64,000 nt of DNA from Azolla caroliniana (Eukaryota; Plantae; Polypodiophyta): NCBI GenBank assembly GCA_043228905.1, contig JBHGNT010000001.1, positions 2,976,001 to 3,040,000 on the forward strand, given 5' to 3'. Shown here one piece after another: positions 2,974-37,821 of the stretch. Both the position numbers and the translations under genes were made by a program. Numbering within the stretch: the first letter of the stretch is position 1; each line of letters begins with the position of its first letter. The notes beneath the pieces were generated by a model. It made no database searches. It was not told the DNA's origin and saw nothing but the letters and a program-made list of their open reading frames with translations.

Positions 2974-2983
2974 AGGGGGAGTT

Positions 2984-14252: not shown

Positions 14253-14940
14253 TGTCGTAAAGAAAACCGGCCATAGGCGGAATCAAAGAAAAAGGCGCAT
14301 GAACCGGCTCCTACACGGGTGGACGGGAGGATTGATATATTGTACATAATTCGTAATTAGGGCGATTGGTGTAAATACTAGGTAGCACATTTATTAGGGG
14401 ATTTTGTGCGTATCTCTGTCGACAGGGGCAGGGAATAAAGCAGTTTGGCTAAGGAAAAGGGGGCACCCCCTTTGGGGGAACTATTTAAGGAGGGAGAGGA
14501 GGAAGGAATAGGTATCGCGCGCTAGGGAGGACGAAGTGCTGCTGCAGATCTGAGTGCCGAGCTCTCTCTTCTCCTCCGGCCGTCGGTCTCTGTAGGTCAG
14601 AAGCTCGCTGCCTCTGCTTCGTGGACAGCCCGTGCACTTCCAGTAGAGGCTCTCCCCCTTTTTGTTTGTTTCTAGGAGTCGAGCGAGTGTTGTCTGTGTG
14701 TGTGAATAGGATCCCCGTGTCGGGTCCATCGCCGCCTTGCCGGTTGTAACTGTCAGAGTCGTATTCTCTTGTTATTGTAAACTCTTGTTATTGAAATCGA
14801 GTGTTGCGTTCTATATCTCTCCTTCTCGCTTCGCGTATCTACAAATCTCTCTCGCTCTCTGTCTGTCTGTCTCTCTTGCTCCTCGGTTCAAGCCCTCGTG
14901 GTCCCGCCCCTTCTACACGCGCGCGCGTAACTTCGCGACA
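14253..14940 (+). repeat. 5' LTR of B
   Basis: Matches 25279-25437 plus 37156-37696, a few percent diverged. Confidence 0.93.
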
Positions 14941-14944
14941 TCTT

Positions 14945-14962
14945 TGGTGAACCCGACGTGAA
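14945..14962 (+). promoter_or_regulatory. Primer binding site complementary to the tRNA-Trp 3' end
   Basis: TGGTGAACCCGACGTGAA, 4 nt after the LTR end. Confidence 0.85.
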
Positions 14963-14985
14963 CGGGGCGGCAAAGGAGTCGAAAG

Positions 14986-17119
14986 ATGAGGGGATCGGAG
15001 CTAGCAGAGGCAATGGCGGTGGCCGTCGACCGATTGGTGAGCGCTCGTGAGGGGACGGGTACCCTCGATAGAACCATTGAATCGATCGTCAGCTCTATAG
15101 GCCGTTTCGGAGGGAAAGACGCCAAGAGTTATTTGGAGGTTTACCGGGCCGAAATGATCATGAGGGATATCCCAGTGGACAGGCGGTTGTCCGGATTCCC
15201 TCAGGTGGTGACGTCGGGCATCCACGCGGAGGTGCTCGAGGTGTTGGCCGGATGCCAGACTTGCGAGGAGTTCGAGTTGCAGCTCCTCAAGAAGTACGGG
15301 TTTGACGACTCGCTTCGGCTGTCGAGGTGGGACTTCATGGCGTGGGTGGAAAGCCCCGGAAAGGGGAAGAACACATCGGTGCTCCTCCAGGAGTTCGAAA
15401 AACGGTTTGCGCGGCTGTCGACGTTGGACCGGACGGTGCTCGAAACAAGTCGAGTACTACTATTTGTCAAGTCGGTGGACGCACTCGACAGGGAAAAGGT
15501 GGGTCCCCTATTGGAAACGGACGAGGGGCTCACGGCAGACTGGGCCGTGGTAAAACGGGTCTGCAGCCGTTTCGACAAACGGCGCGATTGGAGCGACGGA
15601 AGCTCGTTGGGGTCAGGGCCGGTCCCGGGGAGGAGGCTCGAGGAGCCGGTATCGGTGCCGGCTGGTAGGAAGGAAGAGACCCGAATCTGGCCAAACTCGG
15701 GGTCGGCATCGAACGACGTGGTCAGAGGCCCATCCGGAGGAGCGGCTCTGGAGGAGCGGCTCTGGAGGAGCTGACATAGATGGTGCACGACCTGCAGATC
15801 ACACAGGCCCGGAGAGACAGCGGCGAACAACCTCGCGACCAGAGGCTCCCGGCTGGGTAGCGGTGCATGTGGTGTGACGCGATCGGTCACATTCGGAAGG
15901 ATTGCGCGGATTTCGTTGACGCGCTCAGGACCAACGTGGTGTTCCTCTGGAACGGGCGTATGCACGCGAGCGAGACCCGGAGAGACCTAGAACTGAATAC
16001 GGGGTGTGACGGAATGAAGAGGTTGATGGAAGAGGCCACGACACGGCACGTCGAAGCCGTTAACTACTCAGTGTCGGCGGGAATTCCGGTCGGGGGTGAT
16101 GAGACCCGGAAGGCGAAGGACTCCAGATTCTGGCCGCTAGTGCTAGAAGGCCTCTCCGGAGTTTGGATGAAGAAGGAAGAGGCGGACCGCACGGAACAAC
16201 GGATCCAGGAGGTCACCGGTTGGGACGATCCGGTCGAAGAGAAAACGGGCTTCGTAGAAGCCGCTTGTCAGAACTACGAGGTTCTGGTGGAGGACAAACG
16301 GGCAGGAGAGGCCGGAGGGGTCGGCCCCCCGAGAAGGTATGAGACCCGGTTCGGACCGAAACCGACCGGTGCCGGCAACCCAGGCGCGTCGGACGGAAAG
16401 AAGCAGGCGGGGTTTCGGTTGACCATCGAGATCAAAAGGACCACAGACCTGCGAAAGGTCCTGGAGGAACGTATCCTCGACAACAAAGTGGAGTTGTCAT
16501 TGCGGGAGGTGCTGGGAATCGCCAAGAGGGAGTTTCACGACTCTATCGTAGACTTGGTGAAGTGGAAGAGGCTCTCGACGAAGCCGGAACCGGAGAAGCC
16601 GGTGGAGGTGCGGACCACGCACCTGGAAGACGAAGCCCTAGAAGACGAGTTGGCGGGAAGCCACTACAGGAAGCTGCATTGGGCCAGGGCAAAAACGGAA
16701 ACCCCTGTACGGATCGGCAACATTCTGGAACCGGTGGTGGCGTTGGTAACCATGGATCCGAAATCAACCTGATGTCCATGGATTTCTACAAGAAGGGTAA
16801 ATGGCCGATCAACACCAAGCACGGTTGGAAGATACAGGCAGCGACGCGCGCCACGGAAGAACTGCATGGGGCTTGTCCAAACGTACGGGTGAAAATCGGC
16901 GATGTCGAGATCGACCAGCACTTCTTCGTGCAAGAGATGTCCTCGCATCTCGTTATACTAGGAGAGCCATATATCACAGCGGCACGGATGGAGAACGGTT
17001 TAGCCTATGCAAGAGTCAAGAGCCAGGATGGGCGTCACTCGGTCCAATTCCTAACAGTGCGACCAAACCACGAGCGTAACCACGAGGCCCTCGGCGGCGA
17101 AACCCGAGGGGATTTTTAG
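14986..17119 (+). pseudogene. Gag-protease ORF of B
   Basis: Gag N-terminus (SIGRFGGKDAKSYLEVY), CMWCDAIGHIRKDC knuckle, linker VLEERILDNKVELSLREVLG, protease VALVNHGSEINLMS...VILGEPY; broken by a 14-bp duplication near 15736-15763 and a frameshift near 16745. Confidence 0.85.
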
Positions 17120-17175
17120 AGAGGGCTATCAAGGCGTGGGGCCGCGATAGTCCGGACACCCGGAAAGAACCCCAC
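17110..17175 (+). promoter_or_regulatory. Putative -1 frameshift signal, gag-pro to RT-RH-IN of B
   Basis: G GAT TTT followed by TAG; 6-nt spacer; stem GGGCTATC/GATAGTCC; loop GTGGGG complementary to CCCCAC at 17170-17175; the -1 frame is open to 17574. Confidence 0.75.
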
Positions 17176-17931
17176 AAATGTACAGTACCGAAGAAGACAT
17201 GTACCATAGGTAGGGAATTTTGGTTCTCCTACAACGAAGGTTGTACTATAACCAGCGTCAGCGGCCGGGAGAGGAAGCGAGCGGAGGAGCGGCTCAGGGG
17301 ATGCGGAGTCCTCTTCCCCGACGAAGACATCAACGGCGTCGTGGAGGCGGTCTCTTTTGACGACACCTTGGGCGAATTGCGAAAGGTGATCAGTGAAGAC
17401 CTTAGAGAAGACTGGACCGTTCTGGTAGGGTCGATGGGAATGTACGAAGTCATCGCGGACTTTGGGGAAAGGATTGAGTCGGATCGGACGGCCCGTGTGG
17501 ATACAAAGTACAAGACTATGGACCGAAAGGTGAGGCCAATCGCGGCACCCTTGCCGGAGGGCAACGAGGAGTAGATAAAAGGGGTTGTGTCGGACCCAAG
17601 TTTACGGAATCTGGTTGGCATAGGATAGGGCACTGGTTCACCGACATAACGCTACTCGAGCTCAAGGTCGGTGGGGGCGGCTTCCTACTACCGGCGAAGG
17701 AGGACCGATTTCGGAGAATGCTCGGGAGGCACGGCAAGGCTTTAGCATTCTCACCGGAGGAGATCGGGTGCATAGACCCGACAATTGTCGAACCGATGGT
17801 GATCTTCACGGTACCGCATGTACTGTGGAATCTCAAGCCGATTCCGGTGCCGAGAGCTCATATCCCGAAGTTGATGGAGCTCCTGGAGCAAAAGGTGGAG
17901 ATGGGCATCCTCGAACCGTTGAGTGCCCCGT
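17116..17931 (+). pseudogene. Pol of B, part 1 (linker and RT start)
   Basis: TKYKTMDRKVRPIAAPLP, ALAFSPEEIGCIDPTIVEPMVIFTVPHVLW, GILEPLSAP; continues as YSNRW at 22528. Confidence 0.85.
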
Positions 17932-19923
17932 TGTCGAGGTGTTCCTCTCGTGCATGTAGAAGGGGCGGGACCGCGTGGATCTTGGACTAGGGAGTAGAGG
18001 AGAAAGGATAGGACATGATATGGAGGCTTAGCTCAAGAGGAGAAGAGGAAAGAATAAGACCACGACATCGAAGGAGATATCGGCGGAGGCAAGATGCTCA
18101 ACAAGTTATGTTAAAACAACGAATGGTTACAACAGTGGTGGCCGCCATGGCCGCACCAAAATGACTATCCGAAAACCCTAAAGGGGAACCCAAGAAGAAA
18201 ACCCTAACCGAAACCCTAACCCTAAACGAAAAGGGGAAGAGGGAGAACCCCTCGACTAAGTGGTATACCTTACTCGCACAAAATAGGCAACCCCTTCATA
18301 AGTGACCCCTCCCCTCCTTTTATAGCCCAAGGAGGGAGGGACCTTACAATGTGGGACAAAAATGTCCCCTCTCTTTCTATACACCATATCCTAGCATACA
18401 TGTGCACATGTTGCACACCACCGACTTGCCCCTTCCACCCCGGTTTCCGCCTATGGACGAAAATCTTCACGACATCCACCCACACCAAACCGCACATCCA
18501 CCGGTATGTGCCAAGAAAGGAAAAGGGTGAGAGATTTCGTCCACGGTGATCAACCGGGTCTTTCGCCTTACCGGCACCCAACCTTCTTGCCGGTCCCTTG
18601 CTGGCGCCGATCCGTCTTGCCGGCCCCGACCCGCCGACTCCATCCGATCCACCACGTCCACCGCGTTTCCCCGAACCGTCGGCTCCATCCGATCCGCCAT
18701 ATCCGACGTTCACGCCTTCTTCTTCGACCGACCCTCCCGAACGCCATTGCCGATCTGGTCACTCTGTTTGCTCGACGGATTCCGCCCCTCGCGTACCGCT
18801 TGTGTTCTATCTCCGGCTCGATCCTCTCTTCGTCTCGAACACCTCGTGCCAATTCCCTCCGTTCCGCGCTCACCTTCTGTAGGCTCTTCCCGTGTGCCCT
18901 TGTTGTCTCCCGAACATGCGGTCGTTCTTCGGTCCCTCGGTGACCTCATTACGCGCTCCTCGCTTCTCCCTCGCTCGCCGTGCTCTCTCGCCGTAGAGCG
19001 TACCGTCATCCCGGCCACCATGTCAGTGTCCTTCGCGACTCCCGTTACCGCTTTCCCAGACACAATCCTTCGTTCACGCCGATCACGCCCGTCTCGCTTT
19101 GTTGATCTTGGCGTCTCGTCGCGCCGCCCGTCGTCCCGCACTTGCCTCTTGAAGGGTTTCCCCGACCGTCATCGTCGGTCACTCGTTGCGGCTCTTCCGG
19201 GTGCATGTTTGCTTCTTGGCCCTTCGCCGACCGTAGTGCACGCTCCGTTCTACGCCGTAATGCATTTGCGTTACATACTTCCCTCGTTGTAGTCCCGACC
19301 TCCGTGTCGGCCTCTTCGTACTTTCTTGCCGTAGCCCCTTTCGACTCCGGCTTGCCGTCTTGGCCGTGCTCATCCGTCTTCATGCACCGGGTACCCGTTC
19401 TAGTGGCCTCGTCAGTTCCGGTCTCCGACTCCTCACCGCCACCCGTCGTGTCTCCGGTCTTATGTTGATCCGCAACCGCCGAAGTCTCAAGGATAGATGT
19501 GGAGGGCTCCTCTCGCTCTCGGTCTTCTGCCAAGTCGTAATCACCGTGCCTGGTTAGCTTCCTTCTCGCGCTCATCGGCTCCCACCGGGTGTTGTGGCCC
19601 GTTCGCCTCGACCTCCAACTGTGCCAACTTTGCCTTCGCCCGGATCGGTCTCGGCCGATCGAGTTCCGGTTAGGTCGGCTCCCTTCTGTAATCGTAACCG
19701 GCCGGTAGATGTTTGTCCGAACAAATCCGACCTTGCCTGCTCTTCTTCGGTTCGGGCCCGGTTGACCAGACCCTGCTCCAATGTTCTTCCGCATCGTCTT
19801 CCGGTCATGTCGGATTATCGACCGGTCCATCTTCCGGTCGGGTCGGTTCCCGACTCTCTCCTCTTTGCCGCTCCCGACCTCTCCGTCGATCCTCTCGTAT
19901 ATGCCCGTTCCGAGCCTCGCATC

Positions 19924-20511
19924 TGTTGGTAGACAGGTCCCTCCGGATGGGAAGGGAGAAGAAACGGTATGAACCGAATGAGGAGAACCCGACTTCGGAG
20001 AGTCGGATGGTGTAGGCCCGGTATGAACCGGATGAGGAGTACCCGACTACGGAGAGTCGGATGGAGCACATCGAGGCTACATTTGTAAATAGCCGAAAAG
20101 TCATATTAGTATAAATATGACTTAGGGCAAACTTTTAGTAGCTGTTGTCATTCTTGTTGTTATTCTTTCTTGTTGGTGCAAGAAGAAATTAGAGCGCGTA
20201 ACTGTACAGAGAGAGAGAGAGAGAGACGAGGTCGTTGCCTCTGTTGTAACCGCCGCCTGTGGCGAAGATCTGAGAACACGAGGTCGTTGCCTTAGTGATC
20301 TCACTATTGTATATTTCTGCATAGTGACAGTTTGCAGCTCGTGGGCTGCCGTGGTTTTTCCCCTATTTTGGGGTTTTCCACGTATACCTCCTGTGTACCA
20401 TTTCTCCTCTTCTTTTTCTTTTGTGTCGCGTTTCATTACCTGTTTTCTGTGTATGAAAAGAATCTCGGTTGTGGCCGAGCGTCGGACATTAGGAACGCCG
20501 AGTTTCCAACA
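19924..20511 (+). mobile_element. Solo Copia LTR (relative of copies 1 and 2)
   Basis: TGTTG...CAACA with a perfect 5-bp TSD GCATC (19919-19923, 20512-20516); shares AAATATGACTTAGGGCAAAC and CTCGGTTGTGGCCGAG with the Copia LTRs. Confidence 0.92.
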
Positions 20512-20996
20512 GCATCCTCATCTTCGTACGTGTTCGCTCCGGGCCACACCTGCTCACGGCTACCGCCCTTCTCTCCGGTCTTATGTTGGCATTCGAGCGC
20601 AACCGCCGTAGTCTCCGGTCTCGGTGTCGAGAGGTCTTGCCTCCGTCCGCTATGACCTTCCTCGTCGTCGTTTCGATTGTCCGCTTTGCCGCCGCCACCT
20701 TCCGTCTCTCCGGTCTCACGTGGGCTCTCGGGGCCGACTGCCGAAGTCTCTTGAATAGGTGTGGGAAAAGTCCCGATACCGTTACTCGCCGATGCCATGT
20801 TCGTAGCCACCTTCGTTCGGACGCCGTGGTCCGTGGCTATCTCTTCCTCGTTCTCTTCGTCGCCGTGGTAGGCCGCCTTGCCGCCACCACCGCCCGTCGC
20901 TCTAGGTCTCACGCCGGCACTCGGGCCGGCCGCCGGAGCCTCTAAGACCGGTGTGGGTAAGGACTCGGCACCGCCACTCGTTGTGTCAGTAGCCGC

Positions 20997-21962
20997 TTAC
21001 GTCCGGTTGTCGTTGTCCACGGCTACCCCATCTCCGACTCCGCAAACCTCGATTACGCTTGCCACCATCTCTCCCATGCCGTCGTCTCGGTTGCCCGCCT
21101 TGCCGCTGCCACCGTCCGTCACTCTAGGTCTCACACCGGCTCTCGGGCCGGATGCCGGAGTCTCTAGGACCGGTGTGTGTAAGGTCGCGGCACCGCCGCT
21201 TGTCCGCTCCTCACTCAATGTTTCGGGCCGCCATGTCCCGAATCCGTAGTTACCGGCCTCCATGGCCGTCCCTTCACCGCAAGGCAAGAGGGTCGCTTGC
21301 TCCGCACCCTCTCCTATCTCGCCGTCGTACGCTCTCCCGGCCTCTGTATAGACCCCGCCTTCTACGTCTAGGGAGGCTTCTTCCTCCGTAACCTCCGATC
21401 GCCTCCGGCCCGACTCCATAATAAGCCCTTCTTCGGCTCCGATTTTCGCCTTCACAAGCTCGCATGCCTCTCGTATTAGCGCTTCTAGGTCGAGCTCCTC
21501 CGAACCGTTTTGCGTTGAGCTCTCTTCCGGCGGCAGTGCGTACTCACTCGCCGCTCTCTCTTCTCTGCCGCTCGCGGGCCACGTTGTTGCCGGCCGCTCC
21601 CCAACGGGTTGCCGGCATACCCACTCCGGTTTCACGTATCCGCACGCTTCCAATAGGGCTACCTCCAAGGACACCCACGACTTGTGAGCTTCTCGTAGCT
21701 CCTTGACCTCCTTGTGCACCGATGCGGCCGCCACTCGAGGAAAATACTCTAGCCGCATCTCCTCGTCCACGCCCCCTTTCGCCATCTCGGCCTCGTACGC
21801 CTCCAAGAACCTCGGGACATCGTCCTCGTTGAATCGGCCGACTCGATCGACCACCCTTTCGACGGCTTGTTGAGCCGCATCTCGCTTTGCCATCTTCCGT
21901 CCGGCTTCCATCACGATTTTTGCCATCATCTCCTCGAAGTCCAAGTCTTCTTCCATCTCCAT
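20997..21962 (-). CDS. Gag N-terminal-derived protein of C with an acidic, repeat-containing extension (321 aa)
   Basis: ATG about 15 nt after the PBS; VERVVDRVGRFNEDDVPRFLEAYEAEM aligns with B Gag IESIVSSIGRFGGKDAKSYLEVYRAEM. Confidence 0.7.
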   Translation of the reverse strand: MEMEEDLDFEEMMAKIVMEAGRKMAKRDAAQQAVERVVDRVGRFNEDDVPRFLEAYEAEMAKGGVDEEMRLEYFPRVAAASVHKEVKELREAHKSWVSLEVALLEACGYVKPEWVCRQPVGERPATTWPASGREERAASEYALPPEESSTQNGSEELDLEALIREACELVKAKIGAEEGLIMESGRRRSEVTEEEASLDVEGGVYTEAGRAYDGEIGEGAEQATLLPCGEGTAMEAGNYGFGTWRPETLSEERTSGGAATLHTPVLETPASGPRAGVRPRVTDGGSGKAGNRDDGMGEMVASVIEVCGVGDGVAVDNDNRT

Positions 21963-22524
21963 GCTCCCTTGCCGCCCTTCACGTCGGGTTCACCAAATAT
22001 GTCGAGGTGTTCCTCGCGTGCGTGTAGAAGGGGCGGGACCGCGGGGATCTTGGACTAGGGAGTAGAGGAGAAAGGATAGGACATGATATGGAGGCTTAGC
22101 TCAAGAGGAGAAGAGGAAAGAATAAGACCACGACATCGAAGGAGAGATCGGCGGAGGCAAGATGCTCAACAAGTTATGTTAAAACAACGAATGGTTACAA
22201 CAGTGGTGGCCGCCATGGCCGCACCAAAATGACTATCCGAAAACCCTAAAGGGGAACCCAAGAAGAAAACCCTAAACGAAAAGGGGAAGAGGGAGAACCC
22301 CTCGACTAAGTGGTATACCTTACTCACACAAAATAGGCAACCCCTTCATAAGTGACCCCTCCCCTCCTTTTATAGCCCAAGGAGGGAGGGACCTTACAAT
22401 GTGGGACAAAAATGTCCCCTCTCTTTCTATACACCATATCCTAGCATACATGTGCGCATGTTGCACACCACCGACTTGCCCCTTCCACCCCGGTTTCCGC
22501 CTATGGACGAAAATCTTCACGACA

Positions 22525-25140
22525 CCGTATTCGAATCGGTGGTTTACGGTGCCGAAGAAGAACGGCACGTTGTGCTTCATTCAGGACCTGCAACCGGTCA
22601 ACAAGGTGACCATCCGTAATGTAGGAATCGGACCGACCATAGACGAGTTCGCGGAGGCCTTCGCTGGAAGGTCGATCTATTCTGTCGGTGATCTGTACTC
22701 GGGGTACGATCAGTTCCAACTAGCCGTGGAGAGCAGAGACATTACGACGATGCGGACTCCTCTCGGCCTAGTGCGGATGTGTACCCTGCCACAAGGAGGG
22801 ACGAACTCAGTGGCTCACATGGTGAACGCAATGAACAAAGTGCTCAGGAATTGTATCCCAGACATCACCATGTCATTCTTAGATGACATCCCGATCAGGG
22901 GATGCCCGGTGGAGAAAAAGGACGAGGCAATCGGGTCGGACGGATGTCGGAATTTCGTGGCGTCCCACATCGATGACTGCGAGAAGGTGATGTAGAGACT
23001 AGAAGGCGTGAGGCTCACCTTCTCCGGGGAAAAGTCGGCCTTCGGGCAATCAGAGATCATGGTCGTCGGGCACCTATGCGGACCATACGGTCGGAAACCG
23101 TCTCCAGCCAAGGTGGAAGCCATCTCCGCAATGAAGCATGACTCCAATTCGGTCACGAAGGTCCAAAGATTCTTGGGAGCATACGCGTTCTACCACATCT
23201 GGATCCCGCACTACGCACATGTCACGGAACCCCTCTACGGACTATTGAAAAAGGGGCGTAGCTTTGAGTGGAGGACGGAGCACACGGAGTTGGTACGGAG
23301 ACTAAAGGAGGCGCTTACGGTAGCGTCGGCTCTCCGTAATGCGGTTTACGGCAAGGATGTTCCCATCTGCGTGACGGTGGACACCAGCCCGACCGGGATC
23401 GGGTGGGTAATCAGTCAGGAGGACAAGGACGGTGTACGATTCCCGATTCGGTTCGGGGCGAAGGTATTGAGCGAGCGGCAGCGAGGATACGCCCAAGTTA
23501 AGCGCGAACTTTGGGGTGTCGTTTCGGCAGTCAAGGCCGACAAGGATTATCTGATCGGGATGGAGGTGATCATCGAGACGGACTGCCTGCCGATACTTGG
23601 CATGGTTTCTGGATGCGCGACGCCGGACCTAGCAATGCTCCGGAGGATAGCGTACATTAAGTCCCTGAACCCGGAGATACGGCACATCTCCGGAAAGGAC
23701 AACGCCATGGCTGACATGCTTTCGAGGGCAAGGTTCAACGACGAAGACGGCATGGTTTCAGATGACGAAGAAGTCGGCGAGGACTTCTTCGGGTCGGCTA
23801 ACGTAACGACGAGGAAAGGGAACACTCTGGCGCTTAACAAATTTGACGAAAGCAGGTACGACGGGGAGTGGCTCCAAATCGGGAGGTTCCTACAAACGAT
23901 GACGTCGGACACAGCATGGGCGAGAGAGGATGTGAGCCGGGTACGGAAGAAGGCATACCGATTCTTCCTGCGGGACGGGTGCATATGGAGGCACCCAAAG
24001 AAGAGAAGCGGCATCCCACTCCGAGTAGTGGCAAAGAAAGAAGAACAGGGGAAACTACTCGCGGCATTTCACGAGAGCCCCTAGGCCGGACACCGCGGAA
24101 CGTGGGCCACGTTCAAGAAGCTGAAGGAGAAGTACTGGTGGCCGGGGCTGTACCAAGACGTGCATCAGTTCGTAACGACTTGCGAAAGCTGTCAGATGCA
24201 CTCCGTAGTCTGACACCGAGACGAGCTACACCCGACCTACCTGCCTATGGTCCATTTCAAGCGGATGGTGGACTTGGTGACGATGCCGATGGGGGTAAGA
24301 CAAATGCGATACCTGGTGATTGCACGGGAAGACTTAACGAACCAGGTGGAAGGTCGTGCACTACAAAGCAAGACAACCACGGCAGTATGCTAATTCCTGA
24401 TCGAAGAAGTAGTGTGTCGGTATGGGTGCGTCGGGAGGATCGTGGCGGACCGAGGAGAGCTGGATGCGCGGGAGGCTGAGGAGCTATTCGACCGGCTAGG
24501 CGTCAAACTCTCCCTCACTACGGCGTACAATCCGGAAGCAAACGTAAAAGGTGGAACGTGGGCACGGGCCGATCGTAAAGGCGTTGGTGCGTGCATGCGG
24601 AGGGCAGGTCGGGAATTGGCCGCAGCTCCTTCCTTACGCACTATGGGCGGACCGAACTACGCACAGTTCGGCGACAGGGTTTATGCCGGTAGAGCTGATG
24701 TACGGACAGAAGCCGATCATGCCGGTGGAACAGACGGTTTCTTCATGGGCGCCGGTAGATTCGAAGGACGAGATGAGCTGGGAGGAGTTGCTGGCGGCGC
24801 GGATTCGGCAACTCGAGCGGAGGCCAGAGGACGTGATACAGGCAAAGGAAAAGTTGCGAGCGGCAAGGGAGCGGAACAAGACCCAGTTCAACCGGACGCA
24901 CCAGTTGCGACCAAAGAAGATCGAGGAAGGCGACTGGGTCTTGGTATACGACAGCAACCTCGACAATTAGCACAAGGCGGTGCGAAAGTTCGCTAGGAGA
25001 TGGTTCGGGCCCTACACGGTGACGAGCGCGAACAACAACAGCACACATACCACCTCGCTGAACTCGACGGTACACGGTTAGCAGTGCCGGTGGCTGGGAA
25101 GTGGATCAAAGAGTTCAAGAAGCGGTTCGAAGACGAGCCG
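22525..25140 (+). pseudogene. Pol of B, part 2 (RT, RNase H, integrase)
   Basis: WFTVPKKNG..FIQDLQPVN, DLYSGYDQ, LPQGGTNS, FLDD, VDTSPTGIGW, ETDCLP, NAMADMLSR, IVADRGE, TTAYNPEAN, RWFGPY; several stops; no chromodomain seen. Confidence 0.92.
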
Positions 25141-25278
25141 GAGCCGGCGAGCGAGAGTAACGACGACGATCAATTCGGGTCCAGTGGAGAATCAGAGAAC
25201 GACGAGTGAAGCCGGTTTTCTTCGGTGTCTACCCGTCTCTAGCGCATGCCGATGGATGCGCGGTTTGGTGGGGGTGGA

Positions 25279-25437
25279 TGTCGTAAAGAAAACCGGCCAT
25301 AGGCGGAATCAAAGAAAAAGGCGCATGAATCGGCTCTTACACGGGTGGACGCGAGGATTGATATATTGTACATAATTCGTAATTAGGGCGACTGGTGTAA
25401 ATACTAGGTAGCACATTTATTAGGGGATTTTGTGCGT
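25279..25437 (+). repeat. 3' LTR of B, left piece
   Basis: Matches 14253-14411; interrupted by E. Confidence 0.92.
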
Positions 25438-26131
25438 TGTCGCGTTGTTACACACTGTCGTGAAGAAAACCGTCCACAAGCGGAATCGGTGCACCGGAGC
25501 GTAGGAACCGGCTCTTCATGCACGTGCGCCTTCTGTTGTACATAGGAGATCCTACGTAGGCAGATTCGGTAGGTAGGAAGTAAAGGGGAAATGGCTCCTT
25601 CCTTGCCTATAAAAGGAGGGAGACGAGGAGGGGCGAAGGGATCACGGAGAGTCGAGGACGAAGTGCTGTCGGTTTGTGTGCGAAGGCTTCTCTCTCTCTC
25701 TGGTTCGCAAACTCCATAGCTTCCTTCTGTGCAGGTTTCGGGAGGCTCGCGCTGCTCTGAGGAATGCCCAAGTGCTTCCGGCAGCACCTCCAACCTACTC
25801 CTTCCTTTCGGCAGCAATGAAGACCCGAATGATGAAGACCCGGTTTTCGGATCCGGATGATGAAGACCCCGGCTACGGAGCCGGATGATGAAGACCCGGT
25901 TTCGGATCCGGATGATGAAGACCCCGGCTACGGAGCCGGATGACGAATGTACCCGGAGAGAGATCCGGATGCAGGGACATATTTGTGAATATGTTTGCCA
26001 AGGGCCCTCGAGGCTATATTTGTAAATAGCCCGAAAGTCATATGTGTATAAATATGACTTAGGGCAAACAGTTTGTGTGTTGTTGCTCATTTTTCTGTTT
26101 TCCACTTAGAGGGAGCGAAGTGAGAGCAGCC

Positions 26132-26163
<32 letters not shown>

Positions 26164-26433: not shown

Positions 26434-26445
26434 TGGTATCAGAGC
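26434..26445 (+). promoter_or_regulatory. Primer binding site, initiator tRNA-Met
   Basis: TGGTATCAGAGC, 3 nt after the LTR end. Confidence 0.95.
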
Positions 26446-26461
26446 GATTGCAGTGCAGAAA

Positions 26462-29400: not shown

Positions 29401-30535
29401 GTTGAAGAAGAGCCTTTACGGACTGAAGCAGGCTCCCCGGCAATGGTACCAGAAGTTCGACTCTTTCATGACCGACGAAGGGTACCACAAAACGCAATCC
29501 GATCACTGCGTGTTTGTGAAGAAGTTCGAAGGAGGAGACTTTCTAATACTCCTCCTGTACGTGGACGACATGTTGATCGTCGGACGGGACCAGGTCAAGA
29601 TACGGATGCTGAAGAAAGCGCTTCACCGAACCTTCTCAATGAAGGACCTGGGTCCAGCGAGGCAAATACTAGGGATGCACATCATCCGGGACCGGAAGAA
29701 GAAGCAGTTGTGGCTGTCACAGGAGAAGTACGTGACAAAGGTGCTTCACCGGTTCAACATGTCGGAAGCAAGACCGGTCGGGTCAACCCTCCCGGCAAAC
29801 TGCAGGTTGTCCAGCAAGCAAAGCCCCAAGACAAAGGTTGAGAAGGAGGACATGATGAAAGTACCATATGCCTCTGCCGTCGGAAGCTTGATGTACGCAA
29901 TGGTGTGTACAAGACCGGACATAGGATATGCAGTCGGAGTGGTGAGCCGGTACATGAGCAATCCCGGCAAAGAGCACTGGAACGCGGCCAAGTGGATACT
30001 CCGATACCTGAAGGGCACGGCAAACGTGTGCCTCCGATTCGGCTCCGGTAAGCCCGAACTCGACGGCTTTACCGATTCGGATATGTCGGCTGATGCAGAT
30101 ACCAGCCGGTCCACATCAGGGTATGTGATGACGTATGCAGGGGGAGCTGTTTCGTGGCAGTCGAGGCTGCAGAAGACGGTTGCGTTGTCGACCACGGAGG
30201 CGGAGTACATGGCGGCTGTTGAAGCCGGCAAGGAAATAATATGGATGAAGGACTTCATTAGAGAGCTCGGTATCCGGCAGGAGGAGTACCGACTCTACTG
30301 CGACAGTCAAAGTGCCATCCACCTTGCGAAGAACGCGGCCTATCACTCACGGACGAAGCACATCCAGCGAAGATATCACTGGATCCGGGAAAGGATAGAA
30401 GACCAGGAGTTTGTGCTGACGAAGATCCACACGGACGAGAATGGGTCAGATATGTTGACCAAAGTGCTCACACCCGACAAGCTGGAAGCGTGCCGGAAGA
30501 GGGTCGGACTGGAAAGACATCCCATGCCGAAGTGA
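26462..30535 (+). CDS. Copia Gag-Pol polyprotein (1357 aa from the first ATG)
   Basis: NYADWKIKM, CFHCGKSGHFRKNC, WVVDSGAS, integrase HHCC and D-D-E, YVDD and RNase H; no stops; the ORF-track start at 26453 is a GTG. Confidence 0.96.
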   Translation: MEGGSSGQPGMMVLNAQNYADWKIKMEDLLIVRDLYEPIDKSEIPKGVLETEWRLLNRKAVATIRQYVDVSVLQHVANDTNAYEMWQKLWGLNERKNALNRTSLMRKIVNLKYRDGESMVEHVSTFMGFVNQLAAIKFPLEDAMQAIMLMCTLPESWENLVVTLSTSCTEDNLSLQTVKTSILNEEARRRDKEPASDPKMLLTESDRGRQRNRSPQRREKSGTRSQSRGRPTCFHCGKSGHFRKNCQHYRKDNGADDTDSKKSSERNGAYRGATDRNGSDRRGQDRKGTTALTASEEEIMLITEEGELNIVGDETTWVVDSGASFHLTPERRYFSSYTAGEHGCVRMGNEGTCRIAGIGDVWLTTSTGCKMLLKDVRHVPEVRLNLISAGRLDDEGYTGSIRNCVMKFNKGSLIVARARKVNTLYLMNAWLCPEELNVAVDTAGELWHKRLCHMSEKGMKRLAEDNLIPVKHVHLEKCTDCLAGKQNRTSFHSRPPTRRSAPLELVHTDVCQVETKSHGGAQYFVTFIDDHSRKLWTAPLKKKDQVLCVFKELHARVERESGKKLKAIRADNGGEYRGQFEEYCRSKGIRLEFTVSKTPELNGLAERMNRTIMERVRSMLAHAKLPKGFWAEAMSTATYVINISPSVPLDGDTPQRVWTGREVSYRHLKVFGCLAYVHVAKDRRGKLDPKTRPCIFLGYGNDEFGYRVWDPVDEKIFRSRDIIFMEDKTLADWESEKKMKSSKSTGEDQLYEEQSRPARDRLALEDPAEDGEETEPAEEDETDTGTGPDPEMDSDEEETEEPVTEAPERRYPLRERRAPRRFPEPEHVLLTDEGKPESFEEAKLDTHSRRWLSAMQEEMDSLHENHTYELVELPKGKRALRNKWVFKLKPGDAGNPPRYKARIVVKGFQQRKGVDFDEIFAPVVKMTSIRTVLSIAASMDLEVEQMDVKTAFLHGDLEEEIYMQQPEGFEKKGKEHLVCRLKKSLYGLKQAPRQWYQKFDSFMTDEGYHKTQSDHCVFVKKFEGGDFLILLLYVDDMLIVGRDQVKIRMLKKALHRTFSMKDLGPARQILGMHIIRDRKKKQLWLSQEKYVTKVLHRFNMSEARPVGSTLPANCRLSSKQSPKTKVEKEDMMKVPYASAVGSLMYAMVCTRPDIGYAVGVVSRYMSNPGKEHWNAAKWILRYLKGTANVCLRFGSGKPELDGFTDSDMSADADTSRSTSGYVMTYAGGAVSWQSRLQKTVALSTTEAEYMAAVEAGKEIIWMKDFIRELGIRQEEYRLYCDSQSAIHLAKNAAYHSRTKHIQRRYHWIRERIEDQEFVLTKIHTDENGSDMLTKVLTPDKLEACRKRVGLERHPMPK

Positions 30536-30545
30536 AGGGGGAGTT

Positions 30546-31206
30546 TGTTGGGATTACGGTCCCTCCGGATGGGATGGTCAGATGTCCGGGAATCGGGAAT
30601 GAAGACCCGAATGATGAAGACCCGGTTTTCGGATCCGGATGATGAAGACCCCGGCTACGGAGCCGGATGACGAAGACCCGGTTTCGGATCCGGATGATGA
30701 AGACCCCGGCTACGGAGCCGGATGACGAATGTACCCGGAGAGAGATCCGGATGCGGGGACATATTTGTGAATATGTTTGCCAAGGGCCCTCGAGGCTATA
30801 TTTGTAAATAGCCCGAAATTCATGTGTATAAATATGACTTAGGGCAAACAGTTTGTGTGTTGTTGCTCATTTTTCTGTTTTCCACTTAGAGGGAGCGAAG
30901 TGAGAGCAGCCGAGAGAGAGAGAGAGAGAGAGAAAGGAAGAGGTCGACGCCTCTGTGTAATACCACCGCCTGTGGCGAGGATAGCGAGCTCAAGGTCGTC
31001 GCCTTGCAGCTCGCCATTGTACATTCCCTGTGGATAGTGATAGTTGGAGTCTTGCACTCCCGTGGTTTTTCCCGTCTAGGGTTTTCCACGCTAAACCCTG
31101 TGCATTCGAGTCTCTCTCTGTGTTTTGATTTACTTCTGCATTGATTCGTGTTTCCTCGGTTGTGGCCGAGAGGTGAAAGTTTTTTGGAAGCGTCCCATTC
31201 CTAACA
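30546..31206 (+). repeat. 3' LTR of Copia copy 2 with a U3 array of 27-28 bp units
   Basis: TGTTG...TAACA; GA(T/C)GAAGACCC units at about 30600-30750. Confidence 0.95.
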
Positions 31207-34200
31207 ATGTTGTACATAGGAGATCCTAGGCAGGCAGATTCGGTAGGTAGGAAGTAAAGGGGAAACGGCTCCTTCCTTGCCTATAAAAGAAGGGAGACGA
31301 GGAGGGGCGAAGGGATCGCGGAGAGTCGAGGACGAAGTGCTGTCGGTTTGTGTGCGAAGGCTTCTCTCTCTCTCTGGTTCGCAAACTCCATAGCTTCCTT
31401 CTGTGCCGGTTTCGGGAGGCTCGCGCTGCTCTAAAGAATGCCCGAGTGCTTCCGGTAGCACCTCCAACCTACTCCTTCCTTTCTGTGCGTTTACGAACAG
31501 GTATCAGCATCTATTCGCCGGCCTGTTCGGTTGTAACCGACCTCGTGTTTTGTTGTTTGTCTTTGTTAATACATACATACATTCGTGTCTCTCTGTGTCG
31601 CTATCCCACTCGCGTCTTTGTGTCGAAGGGCCGTGTCCCTGTGAATCTACTCTCGCACGTAGTGGGTCTCTTCTCCTTTCTCTCTTGCTCTTAGGTACAG
31701 GACCCCCGAGGTCCCGCCTCATTCCACGCATCCGCGAGGAATACCTCAACAGCGCGTGCGTGGAGAAAGGCGGGACCACGGGGGTCTTGGACTAGGGAGT
31801 GACGGAGCGTAGGAAGTCGTACTTCACCGTTTCCGAGGCATCCTAGGAGCACACCGGAAGCAACCGAAGGGAGAGAGAGAAAGAGAGGGAGCGCGTGCTT
31901 GACACCGACTCGCACACACACACACACACACAGGCCGACCCGACTCACGCCCTTATGTACAGGAAACGCAAGAAAGAGGAAGCACCCGACACCAACAGAG
32001 ACACGAATATACACAGACAGACGCAAATGTATATATATAAAAGGAAGAATACATTCCCGGCTTCGAGCCGGACCAAGGTAGGTTACAGTAGTCGTCGGCT
32101 GCCAAGACGTCAGTCGGGGAGCTCACGGGCTTGTTGCGCCGAGCGGGGTCTTGCGCAAGAGACGAGCTGAAGCAAACCCTAAGCGAATACGAAGGGGGGA
32201 GAAGAAGAAGAAGAAGAAGAGTAACTAACCCTAAATCTAACGGTATACCCTCTAACGCAAAATGGGCAACCCTTTCACAAAGGCCGCTCCCTTCCTTTTA
32301 TAGAACAAGGAGAGGGATGTGTTACAATGTGGGATAAATCCCGACTTACATGGGATCGTCTGTCCCGACTTGACTACTCTTCGGCGCCATAAAGGCGCCC
32401 TCGTTATTCACACTAAATGTACAAGGGTGAGCACACACGCTACACCCCGCCGATGTAGCCAATGTTTCCCGGTTTCCGCCTCTGGCCGAAATTCTTCACG
32501 ACATCCGCCCCCACCTAACCGCACGTCCACAGTACGTGCCAAATCCGGTGAAGGGTCAGAGATTTCGGCCGTGAGAAATCGGTCTTCCGTGATCCGCATC
32601 CCGGCTTGCTACCGGTTTGCTCCGTCGGCTTCAATTCTTCCTTCGTGCTTACCTCCCCGTAGGCTCGTTCGACCCGTCGATCTCCGTAGTACGCGTACTT
32701 CCGTTGGCCCTTGTTCGGCCGTATGAACACCCGCTCCCCGCCATATGCCCGATGTCCTTCGCTGGAGGAAAGCCTGTAGTGGCCCGCTTGGCCTCCGTTG
32801 ATCATTCGTGTTGTCCTGATTGCCGCCCCATGCTGCTTCGCGTTGCCTTCGTCCTCTCGCCGCCACCTTCCTTCTCCATGCTCTTTACATCACCGCGTCG
32901 GCTCGAACCGCCATGGTCTCCGGAACGGTGTGGAGGATGCTTCATGGCCTTCTACGCGCTACCTCCGAACCGCGCAACCTATCTCCGCGCTCGCCTTTCC
33001 GCTCTGGCACCTCCGTGTGCCACATACCCTCGTCCGTTGTTTGGCACTACCTGTGCCGTACTCCGGTTCATTGCACGCCTTGTCGGCCCCTTTCCCGGCT
33101 AGATCGTGCATCGCCGCTCACCCACATACCAGTGTCCTCCGCATCCGAGGAACACCCCGTAGTAGCCCGCTTGGCCCTTCCCGTCTTCGTGTTGTTGCAA
33201 CAGGTCCCGAGTCTTCCGCTTGCCGTCGTCCCCTCGCCCCACCAGCTTGTCACCCTGGCTTGCCGTGTCAATCTTCGCTACTTCGACGGAGCTACCGAGA
33301 TCTACGAAGCGAGTGTGGAGGATCCTCCTCCGGCCTCTTTTGCCATCCCATGACTCCGACCCTGTGTAGTCCACTAGGCACTTGTCACCTCGTTCCTGGC
33401 ACCTCCCTTGTGTCGTCTTCCGCTTCCTTTCTTCGGCACCGCCCATGCCGAACACTGTCCCGTAGTCACGCTTCGATCCGGCCCGCGATGGCCACTTGCG
33501 AGACTCTTGTTCCGTCCCAGGTGTGCCTTTCCGGGCCAACACACCTCCTCGTGTTTGCCCCTACTGGCTCCTTTCGAAACTTCGTGTCGTCGGGTCTCGT
33601 TCCCTGCCGCCATCGTCCTTCTCCCTAGGTCTCACGTTACCACGTTGGCCGAACTACCGGAGTCTCCGGATCGGTGTGAGGGTCCCATAGGACCAGACTC
33701 CGTTTCTATGCTTGCCGAGATTCGAGTGTCTTTTGTTTGAGTCCCTCCCGGACTCTCCTCGTGTCTTCCGCATAGTCGGGTCCCGTTTCCCGCCGCCACC
33801 AACCTTCTCTCTCGGTCTCATGTTGCCACGTTGGCCGAACTGCCGGAGTCTCTAGTTAAGTGTGGGGATCCCGTAGGACTGAACTTCCATTCACCCACTA
33901 AACTTGCCAGAAGGTCTGATTCGGTTCGTAGCCGCCCTGCCGGCCTGATACCTTCTTTCTCTGCTTCCGTCGTCCGGTCACGTTCACCTGCCGCCACCGT
34001 CCCTTCCTATAGGACTCACGCCAGCTCTCGGGCTGACCGCCAGATCGGTGTGAGGATCTCCGTAGACCGCCCATCCGTGGCCCTTTTCCTTCATCACCTC
34101 GCCGCCACCGTCTGTATCTTGGTCTTACGTCGGCCGCGTTGCCGACTGCCGGAGTCTCTAGAACCGGTGTGAAGGATCCTCCTTGGGCCTCCGATTTGTC

Positions 34201-35649
34201 TTCCTGACCCTGTCCCGGGTCGTCCTTTTCCGCATGCCGAGAGGGCGTTTTGTTCCGCACCCTCTCCCGTGGTACCGACGTACCGTCTCCTCAGCCTCTC
34301 CGTAGGCCTGCTCTCTTCCTCCCTCCCGGAATGGTCATCCGGGAGTCCGCTCCGCCCGGTTCTCGTCCAGGTCTGTTCGTCCTTCTCTGTATTGCCGGGT
34401 CCCGTTCTCCTGTCGCCATCGTCCTCTCCTATAGGACTCACGCCGGCACTCGGGTCGGCAGCCGGATCATTGTAAGGATCTCCATAGGACCGGCTTTCAT
34501 TCTCCTGTACATCTCCCGAACTCGTCGTCGCTCTCCTTTCTGCGTTCCCGCCTCCATCCTCCATCTCTTTCGGTCTCACGTTGCCACGTCGGCCGAACTG
34601 CCGAAGTCTCTGGATAGGACGTGGGGTAACCGGTTTTGTAACTTCTTTCGGCGACTCGTCCAGACCACTGCCCCTTTTAGTGGTGTCGGTGGATAGCATC
34701 CGCTCTGTGATCGATCAAGCCCCGCCGGAGCTTGATTCTCCAATGTCCGGAGTTTCGGCTCCAATGCCGATCTTGCCAGACTCTTTCCGAACCTTTGATC
34801 ACCCTCCTTCCAACTCTCGACCTTCGCCCGGTCGGTCTTTCTCCCCATGTAAAAGAGGGCGGCTCGTCCCACACCCTCTCCCGTATCGGCACCTTTATGC
34901 CGAATCCGGCCCCAATTGAACAATCCACGACCGGATCACGCTCCACCCGTATCGGAGCGTCGTGTGGTTCTGTCCCCGGTCGGGTCGTTCCTTGGTCTCC
35001 TCGTCGACCCTTTCGTTGGCCATCTCCCATCCATCTTCGCTGGCATCGTGCCAGGACTCCTCGGTACTACCATCCATCTCCTCGGTCTTACATGGGCATA
35101 CCGGCCCGAATGCCGAGTTCTCCGGAATCGGGTCCGTGGGCTTTCGTCCGCTCCTTCCCCGTATCGTATCGTCGGTGATTCTTGGTCTTTCGCCGCCGCC
35201 TTCCTCCGCTTGGGACTCACGTGGGCACTCGGGCCCGACTGTCATCGTCTCGGGAGCAAGTGTGGGAAGACACAAAGAATCGCCCGTCCGTTTTACGCCC
35301 TTGTCCGTAGCCACCGACTCTTCATGGTGGCGGTCGTCTTCTTACCGATCGCGCAAGCCCCGCCTGGGCTTGCTTCTCCGATTTCCGGGGTTTCGGGCTG
35401 ACACGCCCGAAATCGTTGGTCCCAACTACCCAGTTCCGCGATCTGTATCTCGGCCTCGTCCTTGGTCGTTCTATCTCCGCAAGTCAAGAGGGCGTTTTGT
35501 TCCGCACCCTCTCCCGTCGTACCGTCGTACCGATCTTCCGTCGTCGCGTGGGGCAAGTCCGTCTCCTCGGTCTCGGCTTGCGGCCTCGATCTTCCCTCTT
35601 CCTCGAGCATCGCCTCGAGAGCTGTGTACGCCTCCGCAATCCTGGCCCC

Positions 35650-36351
35650 AACGCCGACCCTTGCCAACTCCCTTTGTCGTTCGACCTCTTCCCGCAGTGA
35701 TGGCACGCCGTTGCGCGCCTTCCTCTTAGCCTTCTCGGCTCACTCGTCGTCTAGCCGTTGGCACACCCTTCCGACCTTCGACCAGTCCTCTGTAAGCCCA
35801 TTCCCTACGTCATCGTCTTCGAGCTCCATCCCGATGGCTTCCCGTTCCGCTCGGTCGATCGACCTAACAAACAATAGGACCTTGTCCGCCCCCACCAATC
35901 CTTGTTCCCGCTCTGGGAACCGAGCAAGCTGTCGCTCAAACTCTCGGAACGCCTTGGTCGCGGCCCGGTGGGTCTTTACCGATGCTACCCACTAGTCGAA
36001 GTCGTGTCGTCCCCCGCTCTTCCGCCGTCCTCCATATGCCTTCAAGAGTGCCTCTTCGAAGGCCTCCCACGAACTATGAGCCTCACGGAGCTCCTTTACT
36101 TCCGCATGCATCCGGACAACTACGACCCGACAGAAGAACTCCAGCCTCAACGCCTCGTCTACGCCGTGCTCCTCCATTTCCGCGTTGTAGGCTTCCAAGT
36201 AAGATGGGACTTTGTCCCCGTTGAAACGGTCGACTCTTTCGACCACTCGCTCAACCGCTTGTTGCGCTGCTTCTCGCCTCATCACCACTCGTGCCGACTC
36301 CAACACCACTTCGACCACCATCTCCGCGAGGTCGTCGTCTTCCGACTCCAT
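35650..36351 (-). pseudogene. Gag fragment of E
   Basis: MESEDDDLAEMVV...VERVDRFNGDKVPSYLEAYNAEM, homologous to C and B Gag; stop at 35992; similarity continues (VLLFVRSIDR). Confidence 0.8.
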
Positions 36352-36543
36352 CCTCCCTTGCCGCCTTTCATGTCGGGTTGTTACGTGCGTGCGTGGAGAA
36401 AGGCGGGATCACGGGGGTCTTGGACTAGGGAGTGACGGAGCGTAGGAAGTCGTACTTCACCGTTTCCAGGGCATCCCAGGAGCACACCGGAAGCAACCGA
36501 AGGGAGAGAGAGAAAGAGAGGGAGCGCGCGCTTGACACCGACT

Positions 36544-36578
<35 letters not shown>

Positions 36579-37155
36579 GGCCGACCCGACTCACGCCCTT
36601 ATGTACAGGAAACGCAGGAAAGGGGAAGCACCCGACACCAACAGAGACACGAATATACACAGACAGACGCAAATGTATATATATAAAAGGAAGAATACAT
36701 TCCCGGCTTCGAATCGGACCAAGGTAGGTTACAGTAGTCGTCGGCTGCCAAGCCGCCGGTCGGGGAGCTCACGGGCTTGTCGCGTCGAGCGGGGTCTTGC
36801 GCAGGAGACGAGCTGAAGCAAACCCTAAGCGAATACGAAGGGGGGAGAAGAAGAAGAAGAAGAAGAAGAAGAGTAACTAACCCTAAATCTAACGGTATAC
36901 CCTCTAACGCAAAATAGGCAACCCTTTCACAAAGGCCGCTCCCTTCCTTTTATAGAACAAGGAGAGGGATGCGTTACAATGTGGGATAAATCTCGACTTA
37001 CATGGGATCGTCTATCCCGACTTGACTACTCTTCGGCGCCATAAAGGCGCCCTCGTTATTCACACTAAATGTACAAGGGTGAGCACACACGTTGCACCCC
37101 GCCGATGTAGCCAATGTTTCCCGGTTTCCGCCTCTGGCCGAAATTCTTCACGACA

Positions 37156-37696
37156 GCATATCTCTATCGACAGGGATAGGGAATAATGCAGTTTGGCTAA
37201 GGAAAAGGGAGCACCCCCTTTGGGGGAACTATTTAAGGAGGGAGAGGAGGAAGGAACAGGTATCGCGCGCTAGGGAGGACGAAGTGCTGCTGCAGATCTG
37301 AGTGTCGACCTCTCTCTTCTCCTCCGGTCGTCGGTCTCTGTAGGTCGGAAGCTCGTTGCCTCTGCTTCGTGGTCAGCCCGTGCGCTTCCAGCAGAAGCTC
37401 TGGACCCCCTTTTTGTTTGTTTCTGGGAGTCGAGCGAGTGCTGTCTGTGTGTGTGAATAGGATCCCCGTGTCGGGTCCATCGCCGCCTTGCCGGTTGTAA
37501 CCGTCAGAGTCGTATTCTCTTGTTATTGTAAACTCTTGTTATTGAAATCGAGTGTTGCGTTCTATATCTCTCATTCTCGCTTCACGTATCTACAAATCTC
37601 TCTCGCTCTCTGTCTCTCTGTCTCTCTCTCTTGCTCCTCGGTTCAAGACCCCCGTGGTCCTGCCCCTTCGACACGCGCGCGCGTAACTTCGCGACA
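37156..37696 (+). repeat. 3' LTR of B, right piece
   Basis: Matches 14408-14940 and ends CGACA. Confidence 0.92.
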
Positions 37697-37821
37697 ACGT
37701 CTCTTTGCTTCTTTTCCTCTTGTCGTTTCCTCTTCGTACTACGTCCTTGTTGATGCACTCTTATTTGTGATTGGTTGTGTTATTATCCCGGCGCTTAACA
37801 CCTTCCAACACCACTAAAGAG

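What the first reader, a model, noticed from the sequence alone, without database searches (positions are those of the whole stretch)
14253..37696. Self-nesting Gypsy family: one autonomous-type element, two Gag-only partners and a deleted fourth member
Seen: B, C, E and D have distinct LTR bodies but share TGTCGT(A/G)AAGA starts and C(G/A)ACA ends. B, C and E also share a tRNA-Trp primer site (18 nt and set 4 nt from the LTR in B and C, partly deleted in E), a GGCGGCAA(A/G)GGAG leader with the gag ATG within about 25 nt, and a GT-rich non-canonical PPT (GGTTTGGTGGGGGTGGA, GGTTTGGTGTGGGTGGA, GGTTAGGTGGGGCGGA). C sits in B's RT, E in B's 3' LTR and D in E's LTR. Established: Gag-only LTR elements (TR-GAG) exist in plants, and most seed-plant Gypsy clades give 5-bp TSDs. 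Inference: this is a helper/parasite system in which C and E borrow B-type Pol, and one such insertion disrupted a helper. The B RT wording (LPQGGTNS, FLDD) and gag linker resemble Gypsy elements I recall from fungi and algae more than Athila/Tat.
Basis: partly seen in the sequence, partly recalled or inferred. Interest (0 to 1): 0.8.

Follow-up and report, generated by a model that had tools for sequence, protein, structure and literature searches.

The report
Capsid-only retrotransposons that switch helpers
This is a real nest of plant jumping genes in which two enzyme-less families keep a conserved capsid gene with a long floppy tail and likely borrow copying enzymes from complete relatives; such partnerships are known from cereals, but here a sister family carries a different helper's ends and half its capsid, which likely marks a helper switch.

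Summary
The nest is real, with 4-bp NCGN target duplications and a tRNA-Trp primer site. B fits the features of the published Phygy Gypsy clade (tree placement untested). C and E are multi-copy (152 and 341 exact start sites). None of 80 fetched loci has its own protease, zinc knuckle or pol. They form one old Pol-less lineage whose capsid is about 40% identical to that of autonomous relatives and is under purifying selection. The protein is capsid plus a low-complexity tail; C lost the capsid C-lobe yet keeps a frame of about 1000 codons open. Likely helpers are the B/H/D-type autonomous families that share their LTR ends. A third Pol-less family (F) carries the ends and capsid N-lobe of another autonomous family (G), which indicates a helper switch. 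Two first-reader claims fail: B was already dead when C inserted (13 lesions), and self-nesting is no more than CpG target choice predicts (13 of 53 nested; 21.7% expected). Gag-retaining partners and host switches are published for cereals, so this is a new variant of a known kind.

The parts
14253..14940 (+). B 5' LTR (688 nt), TSD ACGT
14945..14962 (+). B primer-binding site, tRNA-Trp(CCA)
14986..17116 (+). B gag-protease, decayed (2 stops, 2 frameshifts)
17080..17931 (+). B pol, part before the C insertion (1 stop, 1 frameshift)
17932..18474 (-). C 3' LTR
18475..18491 (-). C G/T-rich PPT
18640..18699 (-). C Trp/Arg-rich motif near the end of the tail (45-nt repeat unit)
19924..20511 (+). 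Copia-type solo LTR inserted in C, 5-bp TSD GCATC
18550..21962 (-). C single ORF: capsid N-lobe (about 110 aa) plus low-complexity tail; here broken by a stop at codon 322 and the solo LTR; 927-1092 codons in 6 of 40 other loci; low coordinate approximate
21978..21995 (-). C primer-binding site, tRNA-Trp
22000..22524 (-). C 5' LTR (525 nt), TSD CCGT
22525..25206 (+). B pol, RT-RH-IN part after C (5 stops, 2 frameshifts)
25262..25278 (+). B G/T-rich PPT
25279..25437 (+). B 3' LTR, first piece
25438..25455 (-). E 3' LTR, outer piece (split by D)
25456..25809 (+). D 5' LTR, first 354 nt; the rest and D's internal region are deleted
25816..31206 (+). Ty1/copia element inside D, 5' LTR missing about 50 nt, 1368-codon open frame
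31207..31751 (+). D 3' LTR, from about nt 79 to its end
31752..32503 (-). E 3' LTR, inner piece (starts with D's TSD copy)
32504..32520 (-). E G/T-rich PPT
34900..36351 (-). E ORF: two-lobed capsid (about 205 aa) plus acidic tail, about 479 codons in the family, broken here; low coordinate approximate; followed by about 2.4 kb without a long frame
36371..37155 (-). E 5' LTR; 18 nt lost at the LTR/PBS junction
37156..37696 (+). B 3' LTR, second piece

Best explanation
C and E are copies of an old, multi-copy Gypsy lineage that has no pol but keeps a selected capsid gene with a long low-complexity tail, and they are likely copied in trans by autonomous Phygy-type families (B, H, D type) whose LTR ends, tRNA-Trp primer site and PPT they share. 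Shown: no protease, zinc knuckle or pol; shared cis ends; the same NCGN target; overlapping ages; purifying selection on the capsid and on the frame of the tail. Inferred steps: the element's RNA is translated into capsid-tail protein; that protein joins a helper's particle through its capsid lobe and so brings its own RNA in; helper RT and integrase copy and insert it. The lineage likely changes helper by recombination, as family F shows with G-type ends and N-lobe on an E-type C-lobe and tail. The window copy of B was not a working helper, and nesting follows from CpG-centred target choice in CpG-rich elements.
For: Exact start sites: C 152, E 341, B 179, H/D 751, F 586. 0 of 80 C/E loci with own protease, zinc knuckle or pol; 6 of 80 had helper-type coding downstream, each traced to a host element. 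LTR-end matches out of 30 (5'/3'): C to B 24/27, H 26/23, G 13/15; E to B 25/24, H 25/22, G 14/13; F to G 24/30, B 15/14, H 16/14. F N-lobe 75% to G and 38% to E; C-lobe 68% to E and 36% to G. dN/dS 0.37 for C N-lobe and 0.26 for E capsid against 0.6-1.3 in off-frame and non-coding controls. In-frame large indels 30 of 41 in C's ORF against 14 of 40 in E's non-coding part (Fisher p 0.0008) and 12 of 15 in F. Capsid fold: pLDDT 86, best matches Arc/dArc capsids, Z 10.5. 30-row clade, SH-aLRT 100, with no zinc-knuckle or protease row. Nested 13 of 53 against 21.7% of CpG sites, p 0.36.
Against: No RNA, particle or mobilisation data; no RNA holder was listed. Which family helps C is unresolved: its ends fit B and H about equally, and the 9 dated B-type copies (K 0.026-0.061) are older than most C copies (median 0.013). 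Tail amino acids evolve about neutrally in C and E (0.73-0.75), although 0.45 in F. E spread with a stop at codon 479 and C without a C-lobe, so neither part is essential. Genome searches return only top hits, so a rare autonomous parent of C/E could be hidden. The tree is the quick search and its labels are motif-based.
Confidence: 0.75

Rival explanations
1. Mutualist Gag donor, as proposed for Quinta and Sabrina: C, E and F supply bulk capsid protein that both partners use.
For: The capsid is selected; E and F keep both lobes; this role is proposed for RLG_Quinta and RLG_Sabrina (PMC11302176 and PMC9744471 passages).
Against: No zinc knuckle in any C/E-type protein seen; C has only the N-lobe and would not be expected to build a lattice alone (inference); E capsid is only 44% identical to H and 35% to G.
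Confidence: 0.2
2. The frame is kept open only to protect the RNA (to escape decay of transcripts with long untranslated tails); the protein does nothing and capsid conservation is residual.
For: Frame is conserved while tail residues drift; the ORF ends near or in the PPT in C and F.
Against: dN/dS 0.37 in C's N-lobe among C-type copies and 0.15 between C and E; E amplified to at least 341 copies with about 2 kb of non-coding RNA after its stop.
Confidence: 0.12
3. C and E are recent deletion derivatives of their own autonomous parent that my searches did not sample.
For: Own-genome searches list only the best 40-150 hits.
Against: 0 of 80 loci, half of them taken in genome order; none of the 18 external homologs read (of 19 hits) has a zinc knuckle or protease; nothing after the capsid aligns to H Gag or Pol above shuffles.
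Confidence: 0.08
4. The tail's Trp/Arg motif is an Argonaute hook or membrane-binding patch, and the elements persist as silencing suppressors or as dominant-negative brakes on their helpers.
For: A WWIGWxxWFGW-like motif ends the ORF in C, F and external homologs; GW motifs bind Argonaute in plant proteins (PMC3520747 passage).
Against: The DNA is conserved at third positions too, so an RNA signal is not excluded; CGG-to-TGG decay can create Trp; no sign of selection within F (1 synonymous, 5 non-synonymous); E ends in a different Trp motif.
Confidence: 0.08

Closest known systems
Phygy, non-chromovirus Ty3/gypsy clade (Neumann et al. 2019, PMC6317226; passages and supplementary file 3 read)
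   Same: 4-bp NCGN TSD, tRNA-Trp primer, no chromodomain or extra RNase H, coding region fills the internal part.
   Different: Autonomous copies here are 6.8-7.4 kb against 7656-9968 bp; Phygy was defined from Physcomitrella only; coding layout is 'ND' there and Gag-PR plus overlapping Pol here; the passages read mention no non-autonomous partners.
RLG_Cereba/RLG_Quinta (PMC11302176; passages)
   Same: Partner keeps GAG plus an unknown domain, shares LTR termini, PBS and PPT, has a divergent GAG and recombines around it.
   Different: Centromeric CRM-type clade of cereals; here no zinc knuckle, a disordered tail of variable length, and one subfamily with half a capsid.
RLG_Wilma/Sabrina/WHAM and RLC_Angela host switches (PMC9744471; passages)
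   Same: Long-lived semi-autonomous families with only short motifs shared with the helper; the five partnership criteria; helper switches through LTR transfer are proposed there.
   Different: Sabrina_SA keeps GAG and protease. In the passages read the switch concerns LTRs; here the capsid N-lobe moved with the ends.
TR-GAG (Chaparro et al. 2015, PMC4350172; passages)
   Same: LTRs, PBS, PPT and a single gag-derived ORF without pol.
   Different: TR-GAG is under 4 kb with 5-bp TSD and TR-GAG1 has a zinc finger; C and E are mostly 4.0-5.7 kb, with 4-bp TSD and no zinc finger.
SARE/SNRE of soybean (Du et al. 2010; title seen in a reference list; text not held; content recalled)
   Same: Autonomous/non-autonomous partnership kept up by LTR swapping.
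   Different: Recalled as a Copia system; capsid-lobe exchange not recalled.

Membership tests
Phygy | 4-bp TSD, NCGN | tested here: met
   53 of 53 dated B, C, E, H, G copies with matching TSD have NCGN in at least one TSD copy; one F copy of 15 has GTGT
Phygy | tRNA-Trp primer site | tested here: met
   18 of 18 nt match to a genomic tRNA-Trp plus CCA
Phygy | No chromodomain, no extra (archaeal-type) RNase H; this separates it from TatI, which also has 4 bp and Trp | tested here: met
   Pfam on intact H and G Pol shows RT, one RH and IN only
Phygy | Short element, coding region fills the internal part | tested here: met
   H: ORFs cover to 5646 of 5720 nt; G to 5665 of 5667
Phygy | Length 7656-9968 bp | tested here: not met
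   H about 7.3 kb, G 7.2-7.4 kb, B type 6.8-7.2 kb; the paper calls size a weak classifier
Phygy | RT/RH/IN tree placement with REXdb Phygy references | not testable with these tools
   No REXdb sequences held; nearest named RT relatives are from Riccia and Adiantum
TR-GAG | Single gag-derived ORF, no PR/RT/RH/IN, at least two copies | tested here: met
TR-GAG | Under 4 kb, 5-bp TSD | tested here: not met
   C 4.0-4.7 kb, E 4.8-5.7 kb, 4-bp TSD; F is 3.3-4.0 kb
Autonomous/non-autonomous pair (criteria of PMC9744471) | Same PBS and conserved LTR termini | tested here: met
Autonomous/non-autonomous pair (criteria of PMC9744471) | Overlapping insertion ages | tested here: met
   E 0.02-0.06 with B type 0.026-0.061; C 0-0.026 with H 0-0.003 and a D-type copy at 97.9% LTR identity; F 0-0.012 with G 0-0.020; small samples biased to the closest hits
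Autonomous/non-autonomous pair (criteria of PMC9744471) | Parallel subfamily structure and shared promoter motifs | not tested
   No population analysis of all copies; F shares a 216-nt LTR stretch with G at 87%
Ty3/Gypsy capsid | Two-lobed helical capsid fold | tested here: met
   Model of E residues 1-205, pLDDT 86; N-lobe 38-108 rmsd 1.7 to Arc N-lobe, Z 9.7; C-lobe 112-205 rmsd 2.5 to PEG10, Z 7.4; Foldseek best E 0.03

The most novel reading that the evidence does not exclude
The Pol-less lineage is a capsid-grafting parasite: its N-lobe plugs into a helper's capsid lattice, the unstructured tail ending in a Trp/Arg patch replaces the nucleocapsid and carries its own RNA in, and the lineage changes helper by swapping the N-lobe together with the LTR ends. 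Half a capsid would then be enough to hijack a retrotransposon particle, and capsid-lobe identity would set helper range.
Probability: 0.25. Interest if true: 0.75.

Novelty: new variant of a known kind. Interest (0 to 1): 0.5.

Why it matters
Why Gag-only retrotransposons keep their Gag is argued from sequence alone (mutualist donor or parasite). This genome holds three natural variants of one lineage: a full capsid with short tail (E), half a capsid with long tail (C), and a swapped lobe with swapped ends (F), next to recent autonomous families. That makes the question directly testable. It also extends Phygy-type elements and their partners beyond the moss in which the clade was defined, and shows that such elements would be missed by RT-based classifiers.

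Tried and rejected
Single-sequence fold of the E capsid was unusable (pLDDT 42). Pfam finds nothing in the C ORF and only sub-threshold Retrotrans_gag or Ty3_capsid hits for capsids; sequence search of solved structures found nothing. A first indel count from raw gaps was uninformative (16 of 33 shared in frame) because the aligner splits events; it was replaced by net change between anchors, where some events are still not independent. The idea that the Trp motif derives from the integrase GPY motif was rejected: no alignment above shuffles. Atlas search of the motif gave no usable hit. Expression: no RNA holder listed; two contig runs cover the C family but are probably DNA. In the capsid tree the F/G grouping is an artefact of F being a chimera. 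Rows dropped from age summaries because the LTR pairing or boundary was wrong: L015, L025, L044, L048, L058, L119, L191, L195, plus loci with no LTR pair. 'D is a solo LTR with a long duplication' was rejected because its two pieces differ by 0.038 while the Copia between them is at 0.010. No complex prediction was run: capsid pairs would pass by likeness to solved structures.
Full report
Observation. Self-comparison and reading of the window confirm four nested elements. B spans 14253-37696 on the + strand; C (17932-22524, -) sits near the start of B's RT; E (25438-37155, -) splits B's 3' LTR; D (25456-31751, +) splits E's 3' LTR. All target duplications are 4 bp: ACGT, CCGT, GCGT/GCAT and ACAC/GCGC (the last explained by CpG decay, inference). 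LTR distances are B 0.042, E 0.034, D pieces 0.038, C 0.012. Two Copia insertions complete the nest: a solo LTR in C and an element with a 1368-codon frame in D. The primer site matches a tRNA-Trp gene of the same genome.

What B is. The supplement of Neumann et al. 2019 gives Phygy as 4-bp NCGN (100%), tRNA-Trp (81%), no extra domain. Here 53 of 53 dated copies show NCGN, and intact relatives have no chromodomain or second RNase H. Tree placement against REXdb could not be tested, and the elements are a little shorter than the published range. The nearest named RT relatives are from Riccia and Adiantum (67-74% over RT), with a fungal protein at 44%. The host is not established; unreviewed scan notes call it fern-like. 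B itself is dead, with 8 stops and 5 frameshifts. C is 27% of B's age; under a clock the chance that all 13 lesions came later is about 4e-8 (my arithmetic), so C did not knock out a working helper. Intact autonomous relatives exist: H (7.3 kb; Gag-PR of 708 aa and an overlapping Pol frame of 1172 codons; K 0-0.003 in 16 pairs), a D-LTR subfamily and G (K 0-0.020 in 10 pairs, different LTR ends). These samples are the closest hits and so lean young.

What C and E are. Exact start sites number 152 for C, 341 for E, 179 for B and 751 for H/D. Of 80 C/E loci (40 closest hits, 40 in genome order) none has its own zinc knuckle, protease or pol; 6 had helper-type coding downstream, each belonging to a host element. 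E encodes about 479 residues: a two-lobed capsid (model pLDDT 86, best matches Arc/dArc) and an acidic tail; only 1 of 40 loci is fully open. C encodes 927-1092 residues in 6 of 40 loci: the N-lobe only, then a repetitive tail, acidic first and basic last, ending in a Trp/Arg motif. Other C-start subfamilies still have both lobes. The E capsid is 44% identical to H and 35% to G. Outside this genome, 19 homologs were found; the 18 I read are all capsid plus tail or fragments of it. Several are nearly identical to families of this genome and are not independent; others are at 55-72%. A quick tree puts C, E and these homologs in one 30-row clade (SH-aLRT 100) without any zinc-knuckle or protease row (the careful search did not finish).

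Selection. dN/dS is 0.37 for the C N-lobe and 0.26 for the E capsid, against 0.6-1.3 in off-frame and non-coding controls; the tails are at 0.73-0.75, like the controls. The frame is held all the same: 30 of 41 large net indels in C's ORF are multiples of three against 14 of 40 in E's non-coding part, and no stop is shared between C copies while 18 are private.

Helper matching. C and E share their LTR ends with B and H (22-27 of 30 letters) and not with G (13-15). A third Pol-less family, F, has the reverse pattern: G-type ends (24 and 30 of 30), leader (40 of 40) and pre-PPT (33 of 34), a G-like N-lobe (75%) but an E-like C-lobe (68%) and the same kind of tail and Trp motif. F has 586 exact start sites (18 loci examined, so the count may include other families), K 0-0.012 like G, and 9 of 15 copies open from start to PPT. 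This is the best evidence for helper dependence and for switching by recombination. The helper of C is not settled: E overlaps B-type ages (0.026-0.061), whereas the closest C copies (median 0.013) are younger than all 9 dated B-type copies and overlap H/D.

Nesting. In 40 stretches of 10 kb at round coordinates, these families cover 10.6% of bases but 21.7% of CpG sites. 13 of 53 dated copies lie inside a relative: more than bases predict (p 0.003), no more than CpG sites predict (p 0.36). The sample is small and the mask may undercount. Nesting into the same family is described for other plant Gypsy families (PMC6911290 passages).

Mechanism. Shown: Pol-less structure, shared cis ends, same target, overlapping ages, selected capsid and frame. 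Inferred: translation, entry of the capsid lobe into helper particles, co-packaging of the element's RNA, copying by helper enzymes (confidence 0.75 for the whole, lower for the role of the protein). Rivals are a mutualist Gag donor, a frame kept only for RNA stability, an unsampled autonomous parent, and an Argonaute-hook or brake function. No expression data were found.

Comparison and verdict. Gag-retaining partners (TR-GAG, Quinta, Sabrina/WHAM) and helper switches are published. My ten literature searches found no Pol-less partner for Phygy-type elements, and none with a half capsid or a lobe swap. The scan's index had no note on this family. Verdict: real, a new variant of a known kind, interest 0.5.

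Noticed in passing
L190-L207 (for example L193 323-3663): Family F: young Pol-less element of 3.3-4.0 kb with G-type ends and N-lobe, E-type C-lobe and tail; its ORF runs through the PPT to the LTR.
   Followed up: yes
window 17095-17120; L112 internal about 2160; L138: Gag-PR and Pol overlap in different frames with GG(A/G)ATTTTTA just before the Gag-PR stop in B and H, and a like word in G; likely a -1 frameshift after the protease. Pol has about 170-200 residues without a Pfam match before RT.
   Followed up: partly
L028 127-701; L030 72-701: C-type internals carried by other LTRs: an E/C chimeric LTR with E-type PPT (L028) and a D-type LTR (L030), so LTR exchange also occurs among C, D and E.
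   Followed up: partly
window 1-3556 and 42437-44156: Two more Copia copies: one 92% identical to the Copia in D, one about 71% on the - strand.
   Followed up: no
window 37700-41610: A second, unrelated decayed Gypsy (RT, RH, IN, Tf2-type SH3) right after B, with a 354-nt tandem array at 40548-41610.
   Followed up: no
window 44412-45188 and 59861-60093: Tandem arrays with units of about 193 nt and 116 nt.
   Followed up: no
G000:C8:17796786-17823370, C16:4989496-5105638, C5:10105608-10112200: Clusters of sites matching the tRNA-Trp 3' end at regular spacing, possibly tandem tRNA gene arrays (65 matches in all).
   Followed up: no
L043 3377-3964, L046 1263-1865, L056 8460-9056, L074 7208-7780: Further divergent capsids of the same Gypsy group (28-38% to H); two are followed by a zinc knuckle.
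   Followed up: partly
L021, L082, L202, L147: Tandem or three-LTR arrangements of C, F and D-type elements.
   Followed up: no
window 50255-50680: Weak plastocyanin-like match (E 0.016), possibly a host exon.
   Followed up: no
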